A DNA stretch of 20,000 nucleotides from an uncultured virus (IMG/VR IMGVR_UViG_3300001346_000004). Lineage: Duplodnaviria; Heunggongvirae; Uroviricota; Caudoviricetes. Each line of letters opens with the position of its first letter. Within the stretch, counting starts at the first letter, position 1. Under the pieces are notes generated by a model. It had not been told where the DNA came from and searched no databases. It saw nothing but the letters and a program-made list of their open reading frames with translations. A program made the translations under genes and the position numbers. This document shows, piece after piece, positions 11,690 through 20,000 of this stretch. Where the stretch lies: IMG/VR virus record IMGVR_UViG_3300001346_000004; one strand, given 5' to 3'.

Positions 11690-11918
11690 AGTTACATTGT
11701 ACCAATGGACCGGAAATAATCATCCAGACGAATACTTTGATATAGATTGGCCGGCTGTACACAAAGAATGTGGTGTAGATCATATAAACTGGCTAAACAG
11801 ACAACCCCATGATAAATGTCAATTAAGTTTAGAATTTTTCCGTGGCGGCAAAAGATTAATAGTAGAATTTTTCAACAAAGAGACAGCAAATAGATATTAC
11901 TTAATGTGGGCTAAATAG
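11667..11918 (+). CDS. Hypothetical protein (start uncertain among tandem ATGs)
   Basis: 83-aa ORF overlapping the helicase end and filling the gap to 11923. Confidence 0.65.
   Translation: MMMMRNTKVTLYQWTGNNHPDEYFDIDWPAVHKECGVDHINWLNRQPHDKCQLSLEFFRGGKRLIVEFFNKETANRYYLMWAK
11912..11917 (+). promoter_or_regulatory. Late promoter TAAATA, leaderless arrangement
   Basis: cTAAATA-gtagt-ATG (11923); no Shine-Dalgarno. Confidence 0.6.
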
Positions 11919-11922
11919 TAGT

Positions 11923-12636
11923 ATGCGCATACAGGACCTACTATTCGAGCAAGCAGATTTCGTTACAGTCAATAGAAGACTGAATCCTAAACTATGGAAA
12001 AATGACACTCTTAAACCTGAGATAAAAGAGCAATTAATTAAAATTGCAAAAGTATTTGAAGAGTTTATTGGTATTGACATAGAAGTAATCAACTATACAA
12101 TTACAGGATCAAATGCAAACTATATGTGGACTGAATACAGTGATTTAGATTTACATATTATTGTAAAAGGACTGCCTGATGAAAAAGAACGTGAATTGTT
12201 CAATGCTAAAAAAGCATTATGGGCAGAAGAACACAACATCACTATCAAAGGTTTACCTGTAGAATGTTATGTACAAGGATCAAAAGAAGAACACCATTCA
12301 ACAGGTGTTTATAGTATAGTTACTGATCAGTGGTTAGAAAAACCTAAAAAAGTAAAACCAGAAGTTGATGACGCGGCAGTAAAGGCTAAGAAGAACAGTA
12401 TTCATCATGATATAGAAACTGCACTTCTAAGTAAAGATATTACTAAACTTAGACAAGTTAAAACAAAGATTACACAGATGCGTAAAGCAGGGCTTGCAAA
12501 AGCAGGTGAATGGTCTGTTGAGAATCTTGTGTTTAAAATTCTTAGAAATTTAGGAATGATAGACAAACTTACACAAGAAATTAGAGATCTTGAAGACCAA
12601 GAATTAAGCCTAGAAACTGCACCAATCTTACAATAA
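11923..12636 (+). CDS. Pol-beta superfamily nucleotidyltransferase
   Basis: ITGSNANYMWTEYSDLDLHII (GS...DxD) and a third carboxylate in PVECYVQ. Confidence 0.82.
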   Translation: MRIQDLLFEQADFVTVNRRLNPKLWKNDTLKPEIKEQLIKIAKVFEEFIGIDIEVINYTITGSNANYMWTEYSDLDLHIIVKGLPDEKERELFNAKKALWAEEHNITIKGLPVECYVQGSKEEHHSTGVYSIVTDQWLEKPKKVKPEVDDAAVKAKKNSIHHDIETALLSKDITKLRQVKTKITQMRKAGLAKAGEWSVENLVFKILRNLGMIDKLTQEIRDLEDQELSLETAPILQ

Positions 12637-13370: not shown

Positions 13371-13447
13371 CTGCTCGTAGCTCAGCCGGATAGAGCACTA
13401 GTTTGCGGAACTAGAGGCCGGTGGTTCGAATCCACCCGAGCAGGCCA
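13371..13447 (+). tRNA. tRNA-Arg, anticodon GCG, encoded CCA
   Basis: Acceptor stem CTGCTCG/CGAGCAG, D arm GCTC/GAGC with A20, anticodon stem CTAGT/ACTAG with loop TT-GCG-GA, T arm GGTGG-TTCGAAT-CCACC, G73, CCA. Confidence 0.95.
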
Positions 13448-13467: not shown

Positions 13468-13731
13468 ATGACATCAAAAACAATGTGGACAATAGTAGCA
13501 ACAATAACAATTGCATTTGTAATATTAGTAACTTCAACTAGTGCAAATGAAACAAAAACAATCAACAACAAAGTAAATCAATTTATCGTAGAAGAAAAGA
13601 ACGAAATAGTTGAGTACCAAAAAGAAAATTGGCAAAAGGGTAAAGAACAAATTGCACAAAATAAAAAACAAATTTCTGATTTTTGGATAAAGGCATGGAG
13701 ATTAGTAAGACTCTATACTACTGCTCAATAA
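13468..13731 (+). CDS. Hypothetical protein with N-terminal signal/TM segment and coiled coil
   Basis: RBS AAAAGGA; hydrophobic N-terminus ending TSA-N. Confidence 0.7.
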   Translation: MTSKTMWTIVATITIAFVILVTSTSANETKTINNKVNQFIVEEKNEIVEYQKENWQKGKEQIAQNKKQISDFWIKAWRLVRLYTTAQ

Positions 13732-13739
13732 ATAAGCAT

Positions 13740-14042
13740 ATGATCGGATCAATTATATTTTTTATAGGATTTACTGTAATGACGTTAAACGAAGGGTTCG
13801 TTATAATGCGTCATGTACATCCTTGGTTTGCAAACAAACGTGATGCACTGATTGCTAAACACGGCGCAGCGTGGAAGAAGTTTCATGCTACACTAGACTA
13901 CGTATGGATAGGTGGTGTAACAATAGGTATAGCAGTAGACTATACTAACTGGAAGTTTTACGCAACTGTGTTAGCAATCTTTTGGGGAATAGTTGCAGTA
14001 TTTGTCTACTTACCTTTACTAATTAAAAAACTTAAAAAGTAA
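13740..14042 (+). CDS. Membrane protein (about 3 TM segments); start revised to 13740
   Basis: TAAATA (13729-13734)-agcat-ATG 13740. This start removes the overlap with the previous gene. Confidence 0.72.
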   Translation: MIGSIIFFIGFTVMTLNEGFVIMRHVHPWFANKRDALIAKHGAAWKKFHATLDYVWIGGVTIGIAVDYTNWKFYATVLAIFWGIVAVFVYLPLLIKKLKK

Positions 14043-14068
14043 AGTTAATAGCACTATATAACCTATGC

Positions 14069-14114
14069 TAAACACCGTCTAAGACGCATTTTAAGCGTCA
14101 TACAGCGGTGTTTA
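14069..14114. other. Intergenic extended stem-loop
   Basis: TAAACACCG (14069-14077) pairs with CGGTGTTTA (14106-14114) and encloses GACGC (14083-14087)/GCGTC (14095-14099). Confidence 0.7.
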
Positions 14115-14199
14115 CTATACACTGCACCACAAACACTACAAGCACTAAAACAGACGTTTTACGTTAGGCTTATAGAATATCAAAACAGTTAAATACAGT

Positions 14200-14445
14200 A
14201 TGGATTGGGAAACAATAGGCGATTTTGAATGGCGCCAAGAAGTATGTAGCGAGGACGATTCAGTTTCTCCTCCACGTCCACTTTGGCGTGTGTTTATAAA
14301 AGGTGCTGCTGGAAATGTTTGTGCCGATGACATACTTTGGTGTGTAGGGCGTGAAGATATTTTGAGCACCTACTACTGGGAAATGATAGCAGTACTAGAT
14401 GGACACTATCACTGTTGCTTGTCTGGAAAGACTTTTACTTTTTGA
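14200..14445 (+). CDS. Hypothetical Cys/Trp-rich protein
   Basis: Preceded by TAAATA (14190-14195)-cagt-ATG; converges on ORF 14409..14630. Confidence 0.6.
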   Translation: MDWETIGDFEWRQEVCSEDDSVSPPRPLWRVFIKGAAGNVCADDILWCVGREDILSTYYWEMIAVLDGHYHCCLSGKTFTF

Positions 14446-14630
14446 TACTTCTTTTGTTGATACCACATCAGCCACGGTGAAATGTGTGCAAAGCACATTA
14501 TCAGCCACATAGCAGGCATTTCCCAATTTGCATGATGCAAGTGTCCTTGACTCATCACACTGTATATAAACCCTAATAGGAATGCTGGTGCTGGAGCAAG
14601 GCTAAAAAATACATTGATTTTTCTTATCAT
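14409..14630 (-). CDS. Small membrane protein (2 TM segments, His-rich loop)
   Basis: TAAATA-tatac-ATG on the - strand; two hydrophobic helices flank QGHLHHAN. Confidence 0.7.
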   Translation of the reverse strand: MIRKINVFFSLAPAPAFLLGFIYSVMSQGHLHHANWEMPAMWLIMCFAHISPWLMWYQQKKYQKVKVFPDKQQ

Positions 14631-14649
14631 GTATATATTTATTTAAATA

Positions 14650-14901
14650 CTATCTTTGCAATTTGGCCTTTAACGCAGCTCTTTTCTTTTCAGTTTCGAT
14701 TGCTTGTCTTATTTTTCTACCCCAAGGTAATTTTATTCTATCTACAATTTCTTTACCTTTTTTATTGATATACTCAACGCCTATAAACATATCTTTAAAG
14801 TCGCTTTGTACTGCTTTGACTGCTCTCGTTAAACTTAATTGCTCTGTATCTTTTTCATCACCTGCTTCGTTCCAAAAATGGAACTTTCTCATTTTTGCCA
14901 T
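14650..14901 (-). CDS. Hypothetical basic protein
   Basis: TAATG overlap with the upstream 47-aa gene; AAGGA RBS. Confidence 0.75.
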   Translation of the reverse strand: MAKMRKFHFWNEAGDEKDTEQLSLTRAVKAVQSDFKDMFIGVEYINKKGKEIVDRIKLPWGRKIRQAIETEKKRAALKAKLQR

Positions 14902-15044
14902 TATCTTCCTTGTCCTTTATAAAATTTGTGACTTCGCTTTTTGTGTTTGTTCATACTGCTCATTTTGCATCTTCCTTTAGTACCAGCAGTGCTAGATTTT
15001 TTAGGCGTGCTTTCATGTGCCACAAAGTGCTTGTGTATTTTCAT
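14901..15044 (-). CDS. Small highly basic protein, 47 aa, ending NKHKKRSHKFYKGQGR (absent from the ORF track)
   Basis: MKIHKHFVAHESTPKKSSTAGTKGRCKMSSMNKHKKRSHKFYKGQGR. RBS AAGGA; its stop overlaps the next ATG. The Y(K/R)GQG(K/R) C-terminus resembles peptides I recall from T4-like marine phages. Confidence 0.8.
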   Translation of the reverse strand: MKIHKHFVAHESTPKKSSTAGTKGRCKMSSMNKHKKRSHKFYKGQGR

Positions 15045-15091
15045 AACTATCCTTGGGTTAGGTTGATTTTAGTTATGTGAGTAGTTATCTC

Positions 15092-15316
15092 TTATTGGGG
15101 ATTATTACAGGTATTTGGTGCAAATACGCAGCCTAATGCGTTTGCTATACCTTGGAAGTTTGGAGGACTTGTTTGTAGTGTGCTATCTTCAACAGCGTGT
15201 TCTTGCTGATGAGCTTCTTCTATTTTATCTAGTATGGGTCGTTGACCACAGGCTTGTACACTGAGAAGGACCAGAACTAACATCAATGCTATTGCTAATC
15301 TAATCTCCCAATTCAT
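15092..15316 (-). CDS. Putative lipoprotein
   Basis: Signal peptide ending VQA-C; TAAATA-ccctgt-ATG upstream. Confidence 0.7.
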   Translation of the reverse strand: MNWEIRLAIALMLVLVLLSVQACGQRPILDKIEEAHQQEHAVEDSTLQTSPPNFQGIANALGCVFAPNTCNNPQ

Positions 15317-15325
15317 ACAGGGTAT

Positions 15326-16186
15326 TTAGCGGTTGTTAAAATACTTTTTATATACGCAGTTTGCGAAGTTTTTGTGATGTGTTACACTTGGATGCATGTC
15401 ATTTTCTGCTGTTGGTATACTAGGATCTAGTATTGCTTCACAACTGGTATGATCCACAGGTATCGTATACCATGTTCTAGGATCGGGTATTTCCCATGGC
15501 TCTTGCAGTGTAGGATCAAGGTCTAGTGCTGCACGTTCAAGTTGCTCTATATATGGATCTGTTTCAACACTTAGATGTATAACATTTTTAGTACGTGAAC
15601 GCAAAAAGCCATCAGTCATAATTTGTAGCAATAGACTGTTATGATATCTGTCGTATACTCCTAGTGGATTAAACGTGGTGTTTGTGCTATCGTGTATAAA
15701 CTTGTATAGTTCGTCATCAACTGCACTTACAATATTGCTGCCTCTAGCACTAGCAGTACTTGCACTCAATCCAAACAGTTTGTTGAATCCGGGCCACAGC
15801 ACTGTGCTTAGACTTTTTTTAGCATCTACATAATGATGTAATGGCACTGATGTTCTAGCAGGCCACTGCATGCTGACTCTGCCTAGATAGGTCCACATAA
15901 CAACCACTGTATCATCAGGTTGTACTTGTTGTTGTGCAACTGCACACTGTCTAGCAATCTGCTGAAAGCAACTGCCACGTCGAGCATGATTTACCACAGT
16001 CATGTCAAGAGCATCTCCAAGCACTTGAGGCCAAGCATGCTTGCTGGGTGTGCTTAACATTTCGTCCGACCAATGATTGTCTCTGTCTAGTTCTTGTTGT
16101 TGTTCACTTGTTAGTGGAGGTGCAACTACATCAGGTAGTGCAAAGCCTTGTGTTATACTGCAACCAAATGTGTGTAGTGTACTCAT
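15326..16186 (-). CDS. SGNH/GDSL-hydrolase-like protein
   Basis: TFGCSITQG (block I), NHARRGS (block II), DMHPS..HH (block V). Confidence 0.7.
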   Translation of the reverse strand: MSTLHTFGCSITQGFALPDVVAPPLTSEQQQELDRDNHWSDEMLSTPSKHAWPQVLGDALDMTVVNHARRGSCFQQIARQCAVAQQQVQPDDTVVVMWTYLGRVSMQWPARTSVPLHHYVDAKKSLSTVLWPGFNKLFGLSASTASARGSNIVSAVDDELYKFIHDSTNTTFNPLGVYDRYHNSLLLQIMTDGFLRSRTKNVIHLSVETDPYIEQLERAALDLDPTLQEPWEIPDPRTWYTIPVDHTSCEAILDPSIPTAENDMHPSVTHHKNFANCVYKKYFNNR

Positions 16187-16187
16187 G

Positions 16188-16802
16188 TTATTGTATTCCG
16201 GTTATGTCAAGTTCTTTGGTATCGTCACCTATTGCTCCAATGGGCATGGTGTTAAATGCTATGCTGTATCTATAGTCTGTGTCGCTAGGGTCTACATGGT
16301 GTTTCAGTCTACTGGGAAACAGTATTACGTATCCTTGCTTGATGGGCACTTTGAGTACCTGCCAAGTGTGCGGATTGTTTTCTTGCCATAGTACTGTAGG
16401 CCTAACCATGAATAGATCTTCTGTAAGCAGTGGATTGTGAAAGTTTAATGGAGCACCATCTGTAAGATAAAACACACCACTTACATAACTGTTTGGATGT
16501 GTATGCGTGTGTATTGGTTCCGACTTTCTCAGTGTGTTACCCCAACTGTTGCCTATCTGTACACCTGTGACTGTATGTCCTTGAGTGTGTACATACTCCA
16601 ATGCAAGCAGTTCAAGTTCTGATTTAGTCTGTGCAAATACCGGTGCATCCAGCAAGCGTTGCGACTGTGTGACTGCACCATTAGTGCCAGACTGCTTGTC
16701 AGTTTCTGGTATGCTCTGCAAGTACTCTAGTGCAGCACCTGTGTCCAAATTAACTATAGGGGCTACCCCAATCCATGTGCCAAATATCTGTATCATCTGC
16801 AT
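16188..16802 (-). CDS. 2OG-Fe(II) oxygenase (TIGR02466-like), second paralog
   Basis: HTHPNSYVSGVFYL, ILFPSRLKHHV, RYSIAFN; TAAATA-tagtc-ATG upstream. Confidence 0.88.
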   Translation of the reverse strand: MQMIQIFGTWIGVAPIVNLDTGAALEYLQSIPETDKQSGTNGAVTQSQRLLDAPVFAQTKSELELLALEYVHTQGHTVTGVQIGNSWGNTLRKSEPIHTHTHPNSYVSGVFYLTDGAPLNFHNPLLTEDLFMVRPTVLWQENNPHTWQVLKVPIKQGYVILFPSRLKHHVDPSDTDYRYSIAFNTMPIGAIGDDTKELDITGIQ

Positions 16803-16841
16803 GACTATATTTAACGATGAAGTGCAGGTGCAGGCATAAAA

Positions 16842-16919
16842 GCGGCGAAGCCGTAAGCGCAGATTTTGCCGCGTAGCGGTAAGCGAGATTAGAGCTGCGA
16901 AGCAGCAAGCGGTAGCGCA
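16842..16919 (+). repeat. Three tandem 26-nt units, each a GNA-triloop hairpin followed by AAGCG
   Basis: GCGGC-GAA-GCCGT-AAGCG (16842), GCCGC-GTA-GCGGT-AAGCG (16868), GCTGC-GAA-GCAGC-AAGCG (16894). Confidence 0.85.
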
Positions 16920-16993
16920 GCAAATTTGTAACGGTTTTTCTCGTGGCCCCGGAGACTGTCGTCACGGTGCTGCTAGTGTGTTAGTGGGAATGT

Positions 16994-17203
16994 TTAGGCT
17001 ACGTTAGTGCCAGGTGTATACTCTTCAACAAATCCTGTCCATGTGTCACCAGTGCGTCTGCTTAGTTTTGCTGCATATTGATCAGCAAAGTCTTGTGCCA
17101 GTTTCTTTTGTGACATAGTGAAGTTGTTGCTGTACTGATTGCGATTCTGTACAGTTAGTTTGGTAGTTTCGTTGCGAGCTTTTGCTATGAGTCTTGTTTG
17201 CAT
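16994..17203 (-). CDS. Hypothetical protein
   Basis: gATAAATA-caatc-ATG upstream; 69 aa. Confidence 0.72.
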   Translation of the reverse strand: MQTRLIAKARNETTKLTVQNRNQYSNNFTMSQKKLAQDFADQYAAKLSRRTGDTWTGFVEEYTPGTNVA

Positions 17204-17232
17204 GATTGTATTTATCCTTTGCGCAAAAGAGT

Positions 17233-17330
17233 AGAACTTGTTTGTCTAATTTAACACACGCTGTTTGTATCTAGCACATAACAGTGCGTATCTATCTGAC
17301 TTGAAGTGTGTATTATAACAACAAGTTCTT
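17233..17330 (-). ncRNA. Candidate structured small RNA (rod with paired ends)
   Basis: Gap with no credible ORF. A 10-bp perfect terminal inverted repeat AGAACTTGTT/AACAAGTTCT, a further ACACAC/GTGTGT stem and a central GCAC/GTGC hairpin. TAAATA-N5 places +1 at 17330. Confidence 0.55.
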
Positions 17331-17372
17331 AATAATATTTAACTAGTAACACAGTATACTGCTTGTAATAGG

Positions 17373-17588
17373 CTATTTAGACGCTATTTTAACAGTGTAC
17401 AACTCACTTGAACCTAGTATAGCACATGCTAGTGTACAGTCTTTAGCACTGTGTAGTATAATTGAATTATGACTGTTTTGACTGCTGTCTATGCCCTTTA
17501 CAAACAGTTCTATTACTGCACTGTGCGTAATGTTATCACAGTAGTCGTGCAGTTTGTTGTCTGGGTAGGCTAGGTGCAGTGTGTACAT
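17373..17588 (-). CDS. Hypothetical protein
   Basis: 71 aa; TAATG coupling with the upstream ORF. Confidence 0.6.
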   Translation of the reverse strand: MYTLHLAYPDNKLHDYCDNITHSAVIELFVKGIDSSQNSHNSIILHSAKDCTLACAILGSSELYTVKIASK

Positions 17589-17803
17589 TATGTGCCGCTA
17601 GAGTGATCCGTTTCTGCATCTACACAGTGCATGTAGTCTCTATAGTGTAGATAGAATGTTCTATGCTGTTTAAGACTGGTATCCAACCAAAAACGTGTTC
17701 TATTGATGTGTGCTTCAAACTTTACGTTGTGTTCTTGTATACGGTTGAACAGCAGTGGCGTGTTCACAAAGTCTCGGGTGTATACACAGTATTGTTTAAT
17801 CAT
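17588..17803 (-). CDS. Hypothetical protein (FEAHINRTRFW)
   Basis: 71 aa; AAGGA RBS; overlaps the upstream 40-aa gene. Confidence 0.7.
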   Translation of the reverse strand: MIKQYCVYTRDFVNTPLLFNRIQEHNVKFEAHINRTRFWLDTSLKQHRTFYLHYRDYMHCVDAETDHSSGT

Positions 17804-17918
17804 TCATGAATTTCCTTGCTATTAAGAGATTGCAAGTTACTACAACTACCCAACCATTTTCATATACCACATACTGGTCTGGTTTGCGATTGCGTCGATG
17901 TGTTACTAACTTGCGCAT
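17796..17918 (-). CDS. Small hypothetical protein, 40 aa (absent from the ORF track)
   Basis: MRKLVTHRRNRKPDQYVVYENGWVVVVTCNLLIARKFMND; preceded by gaTAAGTA-tacac-ATG. Confidence 0.65.
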   Translation of the reverse strand: MRKLVTHRRNRKPDQYVVYENGWVVVVTCNLLIARKFMND

Positions 17919-18069
17919 GTGTATACTTATCTTGAAATGGGTCTACAGGGATAAAAAAATTGCTGCGCAAAAAATTGTGGTGGAGTACTTTTCATTTCTG
18001 GGTGGTGATTCTAGACCACTAGCCAATCAAAATACACTATATGCGCATACGTACTATACCGGTCGGTGT

Positions 18070-18252
18070 CTATGTGACCACCACCTCATCATCGATGACA
18101 AAAATAATATTATCGAAACGGTCACGAACTTCTACTCTTTCAGCGTCGTAATCATCTGAGCAGTGAAGGGCAACCTCTTCGGCTTCTTCTTGTGTTTCGT
18201 AGAAGCCCTCGTATTGCTCTACTGTGTCCTGTGTGTAGTAGACTCTGTACAT
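18070..18252 (-). CDS. Small acidic hypothetical protein; start revised to 18252
   Basis: MYRVYYTQDTVEQYEGFYETQEEAEEVA...; GGGGA RBS; starts just after the stop of the upstream gene. Confidence 0.7.
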   Translation of the reverse strand: MYRVYYTQDTVEQYEGFYETQEEAEEVALHCSDDYDAERVEVRDRFDNIIFVIDDEVVVT

Positions 18253-18253
18253 G

Positions 18254-18481
18254 CTAGTCCCCACAGTCCTGATTGCGCATCCAACTGTAACGCTCTGCCT
18301 TGGGCACGCTGCATGCTCGCTTACGCAGTGCTTCACCTTCCCAGTTAGGGATCTGATCTATCAATTGGTTGCTGGTGAAGTTAGGATCATATGGACGATC
18401 CTTGTCGTATGGATACACACAGCCTCCTAGCGTGCATCCTATTAACAGTATTACTGCCCAACGGCTGATCGTATTTTCCAT
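18254..18481 (-). CDS. Putative lipoprotein
   Basis: Signal peptide with lipobox LGG-C; AAGGA upstream. Confidence 0.7.
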   Translation of the reverse strand: MENTISRWAVILLIGCTLGGCVYPYDKDRPYDPNFTSNQLIDQIPNWEGEALRKRACSVPKAERYSWMRNQDCGD

Positions 18482-18606
18482 ATTACTTCTTCCTTAATGT
18501 CTGCATTGCCATATAGGTTGTATGCATTAGTAGAGTGCTGTACATCACGTAGGCTACACGCACTACACAACATCACAGCACACACTAACAAGAATGCCTT
18601 ACGCAT
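18451..18606 (-). CDS. Putative small lipoprotein, 51 aa (absent from the ORF track)
   Basis: MRKAFLLVCAVMLCSA-CSLRDVQHSTNAYNLYGNADIKEEVIWKIRSAVGQ; GGAG RBS; overlaps both neighbours. Confidence 0.7.
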   Translation of the reverse strand: MRKAFLLVCAVMLCSACSLRDVQHSTNAYNLYGNADIKEEVIWKIRSAVGQ

Positions 18607-18802
18607 CCTCTTCTCCATTTACTGCAAGTATCATTCCACCAAACAGTGTCATAATTAAACCTACAAATGCTATTAACAGCATCTCACCAAATGTGTTAGC
18701 AGTCTCCATACATGCACCATCACAGTCATTAGCACTACCAGCCATAGCCATAATGCCTACTGCTATCAATACCATTGCTATTGTGTTTATAATCGTTTTC
18801 AT
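18599..18802 (-). CDS. Small 2-TM membrane protein with a DCDGAC loop; start revised to 18802
   Basis: AAAAGGAGCGATT-ATG; two hydrophobic helices. Confidence 0.8.
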   Translation of the reverse strand: MKTIINTIAMVLIAVGIMAMAGSANDCDGACMETANTFGEMLLIAFVGLIMTLFGGMILAVNGEEDA

Positions 18803-18832
18803 AATCGCTCCTTTTGTTTGTTTCATACTACT

Positions 18833-18861
18833 AATATATGACATTAGGGGCTGTTTGTCAA
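18833..18861 (-). promoter_or_regulatory. Sigma70-type early promoter, -35 enclosed by an 8-bp inverted repeat
   Basis: TTGACA (18861-18856), 17 nt, TATATT (18838-18833); inverted repeat ATTAGGGG (18843-18850)/CCCCTAAT (18862-18869). Confidence 0.8.
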
Positions 18862-18884
18862 CCCCTAATATCCAAAATGTAGCC

Positions 18885-19274
18885 TTAGTCTGCACGCGAA
18901 CCCATGTGCATTTTTACGCCATATTCACGCCATACAGCAGCATAAGCACTGGCACCCACTTCTTTGCAATCCATGCTCTGCCCTCTATGCTGTGCAGGAT
19001 CCCACAGTTGAAGAACACCACTTTGGTAGCTCTTACGGAAACCTATGCTCTGTAGAGCCTTGCCCAGTTTACTATTGCTTCGCTCTTTAACATCTACCCA
19101 AGCAAATCCACAATACATAGGCTCACCATACTGGTTGCCGCCTGTGCTTTCTGTCCATTCGTCCAGCATCTTAGCAACAGCAGCCTTAGCAGCACTGGTT
19201 GCTTCTGTGTGGATCATTTGGACCTTTACTGTGTCAAATGTTGGTGTCGCTGTTACGGTTTTTTCTACAAACAT
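18885..19274 (-). CDS. Phage hypothetical protein (CGFAWV motif)
   Basis: AAAAGGAGCGAAT-ATG with its own promoter; 129 aa. Confidence 0.85.
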   Translation of the reverse strand: MFVEKTVTATPTFDTVKVQMIHTEATSAAKAAVAKMLDEWTESTGGNQYGEPMYCGFAWVDVKERSNSKLGKALQSIGFRKSYQSGVLQLWDPAQHRGQSMDCKEVGASAYAAVWREYGVKMHMGSRAD

Positions 19275-19305
19275 ATTCGCTCCTTTTGTTTAAGTTAGTA
19301 AGTAT

Positions 19306-19334
19306 ATAATACTATCATTCTTCCAAAATGTCAA
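19306..19334 (-). promoter_or_regulatory. Sigma70-type early promoter
   Basis: TTGACA (19334-19329), 17 nt, TATTAT (19311-19306). Confidence 0.8.
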
Positions 19335-19557
19335 CCTCTTTAGGAGGTAAATTTCTCAGTTTTATGATCAAATCATAGAAGTTATTGAACGCTTTATCTT
19401 CCTGGTTTTGCTCGAAATACACAGTGGGCGCAGGTATGCATATGCTCTTCTGCTCTGGATAACTGTCGTTGATTACCGTTGCTGCCTTGGTGCAGGTGGC
19501 CTCTGTGTCGTATAGGGGTTGCCCGGCTAGCATAACACTCAGAAGCAGGAACTTCAT
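19315..19557 (-). CDS. Hypothetical protein with a short hydrophobic N-terminus and two Cys; start revised to 19557
   Basis: TAATG overlap with the upstream gene and an AAGGAGG RBS. Confidence 0.75.
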   Translation of the reverse strand: MKFLLLSVMLAGQPLYDTEATCTKAATVINDSYPEQKSICIPAPTVYFEQNQEDKAFNNFYDLIIKLRNLPPKEVDILEE

Positions 19558-19970
19558 TACGCTGCCTCCTTGATGTATTCCTCGCTCCACGCTTCACGCT
19601 CACCCTTAGGCAGCATCTTGTAGCTCTGGGCCTTGCCCTTGTAGCCAGGTTGCCAATAGTCTTCTGCCTTCACATAACGGCTGGCATAGAAGCCCATGTC
19701 CTCTGCATATATGGTCCACGGAGTTTCCCACTCTTCGCATATCACAGCGTCATCCTCTACAACCTCTGCGTTGAGAATGTATTCTTCGGACCCGTCGTCC
19801 TTGTACTCGATTAGGTCTCGCAGAGCGGGCACCAACAGTTCCGTGTCTACTCCTGGGAGCACGAAGGTCTCTCCGCCTTTGAACTTCCAATACTGTGGAC
19901 ACTCGCCTTCGCCGTCCCATGTGTGGGCGCCGTAGTTTTCTTTGAACTGTGTGTGGATTACTAATTTCAT
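19557..19970 (-). CDS. Acidic phage hypothetical protein (ENYGAH.WDG.GECPQYWKFKGG)
   Basis: AAAGGAGCGAGCAT-ATG; 137 aa. Confidence 0.85.
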   Translation of the reverse strand: MKLVIHTQFKENYGAHTWDGEGECPQYWKFKGGETFVLPGVDTELLVPALRDLIEYKDDGSEEYILNAEVVEDDAVICEEWETPWTIYAEDMGFYASRYVKAEDYWQPGYKGKAQSYKMLPKGEREAWSEEYIKEAA

Positions 19971-20000
19971 ATGCTCGCTCCTTTATTGTTTATACTTACA

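What the first reader, a model, noticed from the sequence alone, without database searches (positions are those of the whole stretch)
17233..17341. Candidate novel ~100-nt phage small RNA starting exactly at a late-promoter +1
Seen (- strand): TAAATA (17341-17336) plus 5 nt puts +1 at 17330, but the text there is AAGAACUUGUU rather than ATG. This 5' end pairs perfectly (10 bp) with AACAAGUUCU at 17242-17233. The rod continues through an imperfect stem to ACACAC/GUGUGU. It then opens into a large internal loop carrying the same heptamer UAGAUAC on both sides (+ strand GTATCTA at 17267-17273 and 17288-17294) of an apical GCAC-UGUUAU-GUGC hairpin. CUCUUUU and a TTTGCGCAAA palindrome (17218-17227) follow. 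There is no credible ORF, and I do not recognise the fold as tRNA, tmRNA, a riboswitch or a ribozyme. Inference: a standalone structured RNA, possibly a decoy presenting two sites to a dimeric RNA-binding protein, or a miniature 6S-like rod-and-bubble.
Basis: partly seen in the sequence, partly recalled or inferred. Interest (0 to 1): 0.72.

Follow-up and report, generated by a model that had tools for sequence, protein, structure and literature searches.

The report
Conserved folded RNA leader in phage
A stretch of about 100 bases in front of a small gene of an uncultured giant marine phage is better conserved than the genes beside it and can fold into a rod, most likely as the start of that gene's messenger RNA and not as a free-standing small RNA; what it does is untested.

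Summary
In this one sequence they are no more than chance gives: fold z is -1.67, and perfect 10-bp inverted repeats occur 2 times against 3.5 in shuffles. The element is nevertheless real. I found 16 distinct variants in marine metagenome and virome contigs. All lie directly upstream of homologues of the 69-aa ORF 16994-17203. All keep the TAAATA box, both arms of the closing stem, ACACAC/GUGUGU, the GCAC/GUGC hairpin and a second box, GGATAAATA, before the ATG. The rod is more conserved (0.86 identity) than the flanking coding DNA (0.69).

Covariation is not significant, because the stems hardly vary. The few changes mostly keep pairing as U-G on the gene's strand.

The UAGAUAC heptamer pair (4 of 16), the TTTGCGCAAA palindrome and the TGTTATAAT box (7 of 16) are clade-specific. 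No terminator follows the rod. RNA-library contigs from three studies run from inside the rod (17306/17310) through the ORF.

Best reading (0.45): a conserved structured 5' leader of the ORF69 late mRNA. A stand-alone sRNA (0.2), a DNA-level site and a processing rod remain open. No Rfam family matches.

The parts
17336..17341 (-). Box 1: TAAATA, a late-promoter-like box. It is conserved in 16 of 16 variants, and sequence conservation begins sharply here.
   Evidence: the upstream spacer has 0.56-0.58 identity and the rod 0.76-0.86. The same box lies 4-6 nt before 7 ATGs in the window and before the terminase ATG.
17330..17330 (-). Predicted transcription start: the A that lies 5 nt after box 1. 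This is inferred, not mapped.
   Evidence: The geometry is shared with the TAAATA-N5-ATG boxes. RNA contigs reach only 17310.
17320..17329 (-). 5' arm of closing stem P1 (AGAACUUGUU).
   Evidence: Invariant in 16 of 16 variants. This is partly by ascertainment, because three of the search patterns contained it.
17233..17242 (-). 3' arm of closing stem P1 (AACAAGUUCU).
   Evidence: 14 of 16 variants are identical. L108 has one A-to-G change and L157 has two, and all three give U-G pairs.
17312..17320 (-). TGTTATAAT, an extended -10-like box inside the 5' half of the rod. It is present only in the window clade.
   Evidence: Found in 7 of 16 variants. Its count in the window is at chance level. 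RNA contigs stop at 17306 and 17310, just downstream.
17306..17313 (-). 5' strand of helix P2 (AUACAC/ACACAC).
   Evidence: 6 pairs, with U-G in 8 variants and C-G in 8 at one of them.
17254..17259 (-). 3' strand of helix P2 (GUGUGU).
   Evidence: There is one C-A mismatch, in L029.
17296..17304 (-). Conserved unpaired block UCAAGUCAG (CAAGU, one variable base (C or A), AG in all variants). It could pair with ACUUG of the 5' arm as an alternative.
   Evidence: Invariant columns. The alternative pairing is my reading of the sequence.
17274..17287 (-). Apical hairpin GCAC-loop-GUGC. The loop length varies. In the distant clade there are two more pairs, one of which changes U-A / U-G / C-G.
17267..17294 (-). 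The two UAGAUAC heptamers (17294-17288 and 17273-17267) that flank the hairpin. They are clade-specific.
   Evidence: Both copies are present only in WIN, L003, L006 and L011. The variant seen in RNA contigs changes 17267 and 17271.
17218..17232 (-). 15-nt spacer of variable sequence and fixed length. Its pyrimidine-rich start can pair with the purine-rich AAAGGA.
   Evidence: The length is 15 nt in 13 of 13 measured variants and 16 nt in L003. A small hairpin appears in the fold.
17209..17217 (-). Box 2: GGATAAATA, 5 nt before the ATG of ORF69. It is invariant in 16 of 16 variants.
16994..17203 (-). ORF69, a 69-aa protein of unknown function (strand-strand-helix-strand model). It lies downstream of the element in every variant.
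   Evidence: No Pfam or PHROG family and no fold match with E of 0.001 or better.
16985..17310 (-). The stretch covered by contigs of three metatranscriptome runs (X17, X18, X19). They carry the L007-type variant.
   Evidence: table 8.
17373..17588 (-). Upstream ORF of 71 aa. Its stop lies a fixed 31 nt before box 1.

Best explanation
The element is the structured 5' domain of the ORF69 messenger RNA. This phage is an uncultured giant T4-related marine phage.

Inferred steps:
- Late in infection, transcription starts about 5 nt after the conserved TAAATA box, at or next to 17330.
- The first ten bases pair with 17242-17233 and close a rod of about 100 nt. The rod has a terminal stem, a weak middle helix, AUACAC/GUGUGU and a GCAC/GUGC hairpin, and it folds on its own.
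- No terminator follows, so the RNA runs on through a short hairpin and the second box into ORF69.
- A 5' end buried in a helix would shield the message from decay that depends on a free 5' end. The invariant unpaired blocks (CAAGU, one variable base (C or A), AG; GUUAGA; GCUA) would be a docking site for a protein not yet identified.
- In the window's own clade, an internal change created TGTTATAAT. This may add a host-type start near 17305 that yields a leader without the 5' arm.

What is shown: the conservation, the linkage to ORF69, the absence of a terminator-like site, and RNA contigs that join the rod's 3' two-thirds to ORF69.

What is inferred: the start site, the fold and the stabilising role.
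For: 1. Sixteen distinct variants all sit directly upstream of an ORF69 homologue in the same orientation, with a fixed 15-nt gap to GGATAAATA.
2. Conservation starts at box 1. Identity within the distant clade is 0.86 for the rod, 0.69 for both flanking coding stretches and 0.58 for the upstream spacer. Across clades the figures are 0.76, 0.68 and 0.56.
3. Box 1 has the same layout as the other boxes. TAAATA-N4-6-ATG occurs 7 times in the window against 2.0 expected, and 0 of 200 shuffles reach 7. All 7 are at ORF starts. The layout also precedes the terminase gene and a virion protein gene of the same virus. NATAAATA/TATAAATA is the published late promoter of T4-like phages (PMC2984593, passages read).
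4. No terminator-like site lies on the - strand between 17200 and 17345.
5. Contigs of three RNA libraries from three studies cover 17002-17245, 16985-17173 plus 17163-17310, and 17126-17306. They therefore join the rod to ORF69.
6. 99.4% of 329 cells pair in the 21-pair model, and 98.4% of 243 cells in the 27-pair model of the distant clade. Of 10 single-step variant pair types, 6 keep pairing as U-G on this strand and 4 break it (binomial 0.02 at an expectation of 0.25). One pair changes on both sides, U-A to C-G, in L157.
7. There is one copy in 42 kb of this virus and one in each of three ~40-kb relatives.
Against: 1. Covariation is not significant. The observed values are reached by 96 of 500 shuffles and 168 of 500. 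alifold found 0 compensated pairs among 23. Invariant stems fit a sequence-specific DNA site as well as an RNA fold.
2. No RNA contig reaches the 5' arm. X18 and X19 stop at 17310 and 17306. X10, an RNA-library run, covers everything in one 3154-nt contig, but that contig may be DNA.
3. Box 2 sits 5 nt before the ATG. If it is a promoter, it gives a leaderless message that needs no leader. Four ORF69 homologues (L019-L022) have no such element.
4. The predicted openness of the start region is the same with and without the 5' arm: 0.56 against 0.54 at the AUG. No control mechanism is visible in the fold.
5. Fold z-scores are modest, -1.4 to -3.2 in 14 variants.
6. The sense-versus-antisense preference is weak: 6 of 8 transition types, p = 0.14.
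Confidence: 0.45

Rival explanations
1. Stand-alone late small RNA. Transcription from box 1 ends at the U-rich tract just after the closing stem (about 17225), giving a rod of ~105 nt with paired ends that acts in trans, for example by holding a protein. ORF69 is then made separately as a leaderless message from box 2.
For: - Box 1 is conserved without an ATG behind it, whereas the other boxes sit on ATGs.
- The closing stem is followed in all variants by ACU/AGU plus U-rich letters.
- Box 2 offers ORF69 a promoter of its own.
- The rod folds independently of the ORF69 start region.
- Standard metatranscriptome libraries under-sample RNAs of ~100 nt (my knowledge, not tested).
Against: - The scan found no terminator-like site.
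- The stem base is A/U-rich. Only 3-5 of the 8 bases after it are U (my count on the sequences). The two arms lie ~80 nt apart.
- RNA contigs of three studies run through the supposed end into ORF69.
- The two-heptamer feature that suggested a dimer decoy is present in 4 of 16 variants.
Confidence: 0.2
2. A DNA-level control region. The nested, purely Watson-Crick inverted repeats (AGAACTTGT/ACAAGTTCT, ACACAC/GTGTGT, GCAC/GTGC) and the fixed spacings would be binding sites for a phage protein that governs the two TAAATA boxes. One arm lies at the start of the box-1 transcript. The other lies at about -38 to -30 of box 2.
For: - The arms and inner repeats are invariant while the sequence between them drifts, and there is no significant covariation.
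- Spacer lengths are fixed at 31 nt and 15 nt despite 0.56-0.70 identity.
Against: - The changes that do occur in the arms give U-G pairs, which matter only in RNA of this strand (L108 and L157).
- The distances between the repeats are asymmetric (about 18-20 nt on the 5' side against 12-14 nt on the 3' side of the hairpin; my count on the alignments).
- Other TAAATA boxes of the virus have no such arm upstream.
- T4-type late promoters are known to need no upstream site (established knowledge, recalled).
Confidence: 0.12
3. A processing rod. The ~25 near-continuous base pairs make a double-strand-specific nuclease site of the RNase III type, as between the early genes of phage T7. It would cut ORF69 RNA free from upstream RNA. 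The RNA contig ends at 17306 and 17310, inside helix P2, would be the cut.
For: - Two RNA contigs from two studies stop 4 nt apart, inside the 5' strand of P2, with no loose end.
- 17310 is too close to TATAAT (17317-17312) to be a start from that box (spacing rule recalled).
Against: - Contig ends at a depth of 3-4 are poor markers of RNA ends (warning).
- This reading does not explain the conserved box 1.
- T7-type sites are not conserved in sequence in this way (recalled).
Confidence: 0.1
4. An ordinary host-type promoter plus leader. TGTTATAAT would drive ORF69 from about 17305, and the inverted repeat would be incidental.
For: - The box is a perfect extended -10.
- RNA contigs stop at 17306 and 17310.
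- Overlapping early and late promoters are described for RB49, S-PM2 and Syn9 (PMC2984593, passages read).
Against: - The box is absent from 9 of 16 variants, which nevertheless keep the whole element.
- The motif is at chance frequency in the window.
- The scan found no -35 partner.
- X18's contig reaches 17310, upstream of the expected start.
Confidence: 0.08

Closest known systems
T4-type late promoter (TATAAATA; NATAAATA in cyanophages), read by gp55 with gp33 and the gp45 clamp
   Same: Box 1 and box 2 carry the TAAATA core. The same box precedes the terminase gene and a virion protein gene of this virus. Source for the motif: PMC2984593, passages read.
   Different: The two bases before the core are not TA at box 1 (GT, TT or TG). 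Most boxes here sit 4-6 nt from the ATG, which T4 does not do according to earlier notes of this scan. No start site is mapped. Genes for gp55, gp33 and gp45 were not looked for.
5'-terminal stabiliser stem-loops of bacterial and phage messages (ompA 5' UTR; T4 gene 32 leader). Recalled; no paper read.
   Same: A helix that begins within one or two bases of the predicted 5' end. The structured domain lies well upstream of the start codon and is independent of it. It precedes a small gene recovered in RNA libraries.
   Different: This rod is much longer, is irregular and has invariant loops. No pseudoknot was tested. The stabilising effect is not measured. The 5' end is not mapped.
Lambdoid PR'-tR' '6S' leader RNA and HK022 put RNA (short structured RNAs made just downstream of a phage promoter). 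Recalled.
   Same: A conserved structured RNA that starts at a phage late-type promoter, upstream of the gene it precedes.
   Different: No terminator and no Q-like or Nun-like partner is known here. There is no sequence or Rfam similarity.
PeSL cassettes of T4-type phages (promoter-early stem-loops; PMC2839356, abstract read)
   Same: An intergenic cassette among small ORFs. In the window clade it combines a host-type promoter box with an inverted repeat.
   Different: PeSLs are many near-identical copies with strong sigma-70 promoters and terminator stem-loops. This element is single-copy. The sigma-70-like box is in 7 of 16 variants, and no terminator was found.
T4 translational-mask hairpins with an internal late promoter (genes e, soc, 49).
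   Same: A late box lies just downstream of RNA structure, so longer and shorter transcripts differ in their 5' structure.
   Different: The predicted openness of the ORF69 start region does not change with the 5' arm. The rod does not include the start codon.

Membership tests
T4-type late promoter (box 1) | TATAAATA-like core at about -13 to -6 | tested here: met
   The TAAATA core is present in 16 of 16 variants. The two upstream bases differ from TA.
T4-type late promoter (box 1) | The same motif stands in front of late (virion, packaging) genes of the same virus | tested here: met
   It precedes the terminase large subunit gene and a virion structural protein gene, and 7 ORF starts in the window.
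T4-type late promoter (box 1) | A transcript 5' end a few bases downstream of the box | tested here: inconclusive
   RNA contigs reach only 17310. Contigs cannot show starts.
T4-type late promoter (box 1) | The phage encodes gp55, gp33 and gp45 homologues | not tested
   Only 42 kb of a genome of perhaps 270-350 kb was on hand. UvsX-like, gp32-like and DnaB-like genes are present.
Terminator-ended bacterial/phage sRNA | An intrinsic terminator (G+C-rich hairpin plus U run) at the 3' end | tested here: not met
   The scan found none on the - strand at 17200-17345. The stem base is A/U-rich, with 3-5 U in the next 8 bases (my count on the sequences).
Terminator-ended bacterial/phage sRNA | A discrete short transcript | tested here: inconclusive
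   RNA contigs are continuous into ORF69. Short RNAs may have been missed by these libraries.
6S RNA | A match to the 6S covariance models; a long rod with a central bubble that mimics an open promoter | tested here: not met
   No 6S hit at the gathering threshold or at E up to 10.
Any Rfam 15 family | A score at or above the family's gathering threshold | tested here: not met
   In the window only tRNA-Arg reached threshold. The best weak hits were RT-9 at 14.7 bits against 46.1 and mir-460 at 11.7 against 52. Nothing was found in 12 related loci.
PeSL regulatory cassette | Many near-identical copies per genome flanking small ORFs | tested here: not met
   One copy in the window plus 21.9 kb upstream, and one copy in each of three ~40-kb relatives. 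These are only parts of the genomes.
PeSL regulatory cassette | A strong sigma-70 promoter plus a terminator stem-loop | tested here: not met
   The extended -10 box is in 7 of 16 variants, with no -35 partner and no terminator.
T4-type translational mask hairpin | The longer transcript sequesters the ribosome-binding site or start codon and the shorter one frees it | tested here: not met
   The unpaired probability of GGA, the box and the AUG is the same from 17330, 17305 and 17420 (window sequence only).
Structured RNA supported by covariation | Compensatory changes beyond what shuffles give | tested here: inconclusive
   One pair changes on both sides. Shuffles reach the observed values in 96 of 500 and 168 of 500 trials. 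Power is low because the stems hardly vary.

The most novel reading that the evidence does not exclude
In a group of giant marine T4-related phages, late genes mostly seem to start on their AUG. Here one conserved late promoter would instead fire into a gene-less rod RNA of ~105 nt with paired ends. That RNA would act in trans late in infection, for instance by binding a phage or host protein through its invariant loops. It would sit immediately upstream of the leaderless promoter of a small, abundantly expressed protein, and so would be an undescribed phage-encoded late small RNA class.
Probability: 0.2. Interest if true: 0.7.

Novelty: new member of a known kind. Interest (0 to 1): 0.45.

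Why it matters
Non-coding RNA elements of uncultured marine phages are almost unknown. This one is widespread: the stretch was found in runs of 12 studies. It is under stronger constraint than its neighbouring genes. It is also the one place in the window where a late-type box is conserved with no start codon behind it, so its transcript ends would test directly whether these TAAATA boxes are promoters. That in turn tests whether the phage group really makes leaderless late messages, an inference this scan has made repeatedly without RNA data. The RNA contigs laid here already show that at least some ORF69 RNA carries sequence upstream of box 2.

Tried and rejected
- **Relatives by protein.** ORF69 found nothing in viral contigs or by tblastn in cultured phages. 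Distant blastn of 14000-20000 against phages gave only two short hits in Pelagibacter phages, away from the element.
- **Exact apical pattern.** The 28-nt pattern gave 0 hits in viral contigs.
- **Pattern scans are mostly chance.** 72 of 74 loci (scored), 4 of 6 and 51 of 55 lack the inner motifs. Searches returned only the same four contigs.
- **Own genome.** It is not held. The nearest record, G001, ends at window position 11754. The record behind L005 is not held.
- **Repeats.** The window has no other copy.
- **ORF69 function.** No Pfam or PHROG family. The model has pLDDT 81.7. No PDB match has E of 0.001 or better. The best viral matches are uncharacterised proteins. So nothing shows that ORF69 binds the rod.
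- **Mask hypothesis.** Rejected for the window sequence.
- **A small ORF inside the rod.** Rejected: the frame is closed after 3 codons in the window, and the indels are not multiples of three (my reading).
- **Pairing of the 5' arm with ORF69 codons 2-4.** Only 6 bp, and not conserved in L010, L011 or the distant clade (my reading).
- **Parts of the laid stretch without RNA-contig cover.** In X17, X18 and X19 nothing covers 17311-17850. I do not use this as evidence of silence (rule).
- **X10.** It covers the whole stretch in one contig and may be DNA or this DNA's source.
- **Earlier notes of this scan.** None for this genome or this sequence.
- **Literature.** searched the three element motifs. 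None of the 10 papers listed holds the 5'-arm motif, and none is about phages. One search searched small-RNA, late-promoter and marine terms. None of its 12 listed titles and abstract openings describes this element. One search was the leaderless/late-promoter search.
- **Not done.** A covariance model was not built, because the invariant arms had already allowed exhaustive pattern searches.

Full report
**1. Setting**

The window is a fragment of an uncultured marine phage related to T4.
- It carries a DnaB-like helicase, a Toprim primase, a carbamoyltransferase and two 2OG-Fe(II) oxygenases.
- The 21.9 kb upstream in the nearest held record carry a terminase, a gp32-like SSB and a UvsX-like recombinase.
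- Related contigs are rated 11-12% complete at ~40 kb, and one contig with the same gene is 266 kb long. The genomes are therefore very large.
- Positions 14000-20000 are a block of small - strand ORFs. Some have TTGACA-17-TATxxT promoters and AAGGAG ribosome sites.
- The finding lies in the 169-nt gap 17204-17372, between a 71-aa ORF (17373-17588) and a 69-aa ORF (16994-17203, here ORF69).

**2. The observation**

Taken alone, none of them is remarkable.
- The 136-nt fold has z = -1.67.
- The 106 nt from the predicted start have z = -2.57.
- A perfect 10-bp inverted repeat within 100 nt occurs twice in the window, against 3.5 on average in shuffles.
- TGNTATAAT occurs at chance frequency.
- Rfam gives nothing but the tRNA-Arg at 13371-13444.

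**3. Relatives**

The ORF69 protein found 23 loci in metagenome contigs.
- Seventeen carry the element upstream of the homologue.
- L009 is cut off inside the element.
- L019-L022 (44-50% identity to ORF69 in the alignment) have the upstream gene abutting and no element.
- L024 is a weak partial match that shows no element in its upstream stretch.

Pattern scans of viral contigs added four contigs: L029, L073, L108 and L157. Most other matches were chance: 72 of 74, 4 of 6 and 51 of 55.

In all there are 16 distinct variants, 7 close to the window and 9 in a more distant clade.

The stretch itself is held by sequencing runs of 12 studies of marine samples.

**4. What is conserved**

These are invariant or nearly so in the 16 variants:
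- TAAATA (box 1) and its distance to AGAAC.
- AGAACUUGU and ACAAGUUCU.
- ACACAC/AUACAC and GUGUGU.
- CAAGU, one variable base (C or A), AG.
- GCAC and GUGCUA.
- ACU plus U-rich letters after the stem.
- GGATAAATA (box 2), 4-7 nt before the ATG.

Identity by segment:

| Segment | Within distant clade | Between clades |
|---|---|---|
| Rod | 0.86 | 0.76 |
| Flanking coding stretches | 0.69 | 0.68 |
| Upstream spacer | 0.58 | 0.56 |
| 15-nt spacer | 0.70 | 0.60 |

Spacer lengths are fixed: 31 nt in 11 of 13 measured variants and 15 nt in 13 of 13. The loops of the rod, by contrast, vary in length.

Three features are not conserved:
- The two UAGAUAC heptamers (4 of 16 variants).
- The TTTGCGCAAA palindrome (window clade only).
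- TGTTATAAT (7 of 16). The distant clade has GUGUUCACACACA at that place, which pairs with UGAACA on the other side.

**5. Is it an RNA fold?**

The consensus fold has the terminal stem, AUACAC/GUGUGU and the GCAC/GUGC hairpin.
- On the 16 variants, 21 pairs are 99.4% paired with one double-sided change. That is no better than shuffles (96 of 500).
- On the 9 distant variants, 27 pairs in four helices are 98.4% paired (168 of 500 shuffles).

So there is no statistical covariation, because the stems hardly vary. The changes that do occur lean towards RNA on the gene's strand.
- L108 and L157 change the 3' arm only from A to G, giving U-G pairs.
- One apical pair runs U-A, U-G, C-G.
- L003 and L011 carry an inserted GU in the 5' arm together with an A-to-U change opposite, which lengthens the stem to 11 pairs (my reading).
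- Of 10 single-step variant pair types, 6 keep pairing and 4 break it (p = 0.02 if a quarter were expected, 0.08 if a third).
- The preference for the sense strand over the antisense strand is weak (239 against 231 of 243 cells; 6 of 8 transition types, p = 0.14).
- Single-sequence folds give a competing inner structure, GCAC with GUGU and UGUU with AACA. The inner architecture is therefore not settled.

**6. The box**

TAAATA followed by 4-6 nt and ATG occurs 7 times in the window against 2.0 expected, and 0 of 200 shuffles reach 7.
- All seven are at starts of ORFs of 69 aa or more that lack a ribosome site.
- The same layout precedes the terminase gene, a 982-aa virion protein gene and other genes, and it is kept gene by gene in relatives.
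- Earlier notes of this scan describe the layout in many related aquatic phages as late promoters fused to start codons, without RNA evidence. These are unchecked leads.
- The published late promoter of T4-like phages is TATAAATA or NATAAATA (PMC2984593, passages read).
- Box 1 has the same geometry, with a T before the predicted starting A. What follows is AAGAAC, not ATG. It is the only conserved box of this kind in the window without a start codon behind it.

**7. RNA evidence**

Contigs of four RNA-library runs were laid on 16950-17850.
- X10 covers the whole stretch in one 3154-nt contig. It may be DNA or the source of this DNA.
- X17, X18 and X19 come from three studies and all carry the L007-type variant. 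They cover 17002-17245, 16985-17173 plus 17163-17310, and 17126-17306.
- These contigs join the 3' two-thirds of the rod, the spacer, box 2 and ORF69.
- X18 and X19 stop at 17310 and 17306 without loose ends.
- That place is just downstream of TATAAT (17317-17312). But 17310 is only 2 nt past the hexamer. A host-type start near 17305 does not explain X18. A start further upstream with thin end coverage does, and so does a cut inside helix P2.
- The contigs do not show the 5' arm as RNA.
- They do show that these molecules are not leaderless.

**8. Mechanism**

- No terminator-like site follows the rod. Its base is A/U-rich and its arms are ~80 nt apart, so efficient termination is unlikely.
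- The rod folds on its own. The predicted openness of GGA, box 2 and the AUG is the same whether the RNA starts at 17330, 17305 or 17420. A T4-style mask of the start site is therefore not supported.
- The element is single-copy, where I could look, and always tied to ORF69. This rules out a PeSL-type repeated cassette (PMC2839356, abstract read).
- ORF69 has no known family or fold. Nothing links it to RNA binding.

I therefore favour a structured 5' leader domain of a late ORF69 message, with its 5' end buried in the terminal stem. It probably acts in message stability or as a protein docking site.

The window clade may have gained an extra host-type start inside the rod. That would resemble the overlapping early and late promoters described for RB49, S-PM2 and Syn9.

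**9. Rivals**

- A stand-alone late sRNA remains possible (0.2), because box 2 gives ORF69 its own promoter and the libraries laid would miss short RNAs.
- A DNA-level site (0.12) fits the invariance and the fixed spacings. It does not fit the U-G changes or the asymmetry.
- A processing rod (0.1) fits the contig ends.
- A plain host-type promoter and leader (0.08) cannot hold for the 9 variants without the box.

**10. Verdict**

It is a new member of a known kind, a conserved structured RNA element at the 5' end of a phage late transcription unit. Interest is moderate, mainly because its RNA ends would test the leaderless-late-message inference for this phage group.

Noticed in passing
window 11912-11925, 13729-13742, 14190-14202 (+); 14628-14641, 15314-15328, 16800-16813, 17201-17214 (-); L105 911, 2512, 11319: TAAATA followed by 4-6 nt and ATG stands at 7 ORF starts in the window (2.0 expected; 0 of 200 shuffles reach 7). 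It also stands before the terminase gene and a 982-aa virion protein gene upstream. These genes have no ribosome-binding site. This points to late promoters fused to start codons, that is, leaderless late messages. Earlier notes of this scan report the same in related phages. The RNA contigs laid here cross the box in front of ORF69, so those molecules are not leaderless.
   Followed up: partly
window 17918-17929 (-): A 40-aa ORF (17796-17918) is preceded in relatives L010 and L011 by TAAATA-N5-ATG. In the window the box reads TAAGTA. The block CCCTGTAGACCCATTT upstream of it is conserved.
   Followed up: no
window 17342-17372 (-) and the same place in 12 relatives: The spacer between the stop of the upstream 71-aa ORF and box 1 is 31 nt in 11 of 13 variants measured, although its sequence is only 0.56-0.58 identical. 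The 15-nt spacer before GGATAAATA is also fixed in length. No explanation was tested.
   Followed up: no
window 18833-18861 and 19306-19334 (-): There are two near-consensus host-type promoters (TTGACA, 17 nt, TATATT or TATTAT), each followed by an AAAAGGAGCGA ribosome site and a small ORF. This block (18001-20000) has 0.44-0.47 G+C, against 0.33-0.37 in the first 14 kb.
   Followed up: no
window 13371-13447 (+): tRNA-Arg (anticodon GCG), the only Rfam or ARAGORN hit in the window.
   Followed up: no
L019-L022 (metagenome loci): ORF69 homologues of 44-50% identity occur without the element. The upstream gene ends one base before their ATG. So the protein family is wider than the element.
   Followed up: partly
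window 16750-16965 (-): The stretch after the ORF69 stop that looked like a conserved non-coding block (GTGACGACAGTCTCCGGGGCC) is the start of a GTG-initiated 71-aa ORF. Its relatives differ in a codon-wise manner.
   Followed up: partly
window 5466: A single N in the window sequence.
   Followed up: no
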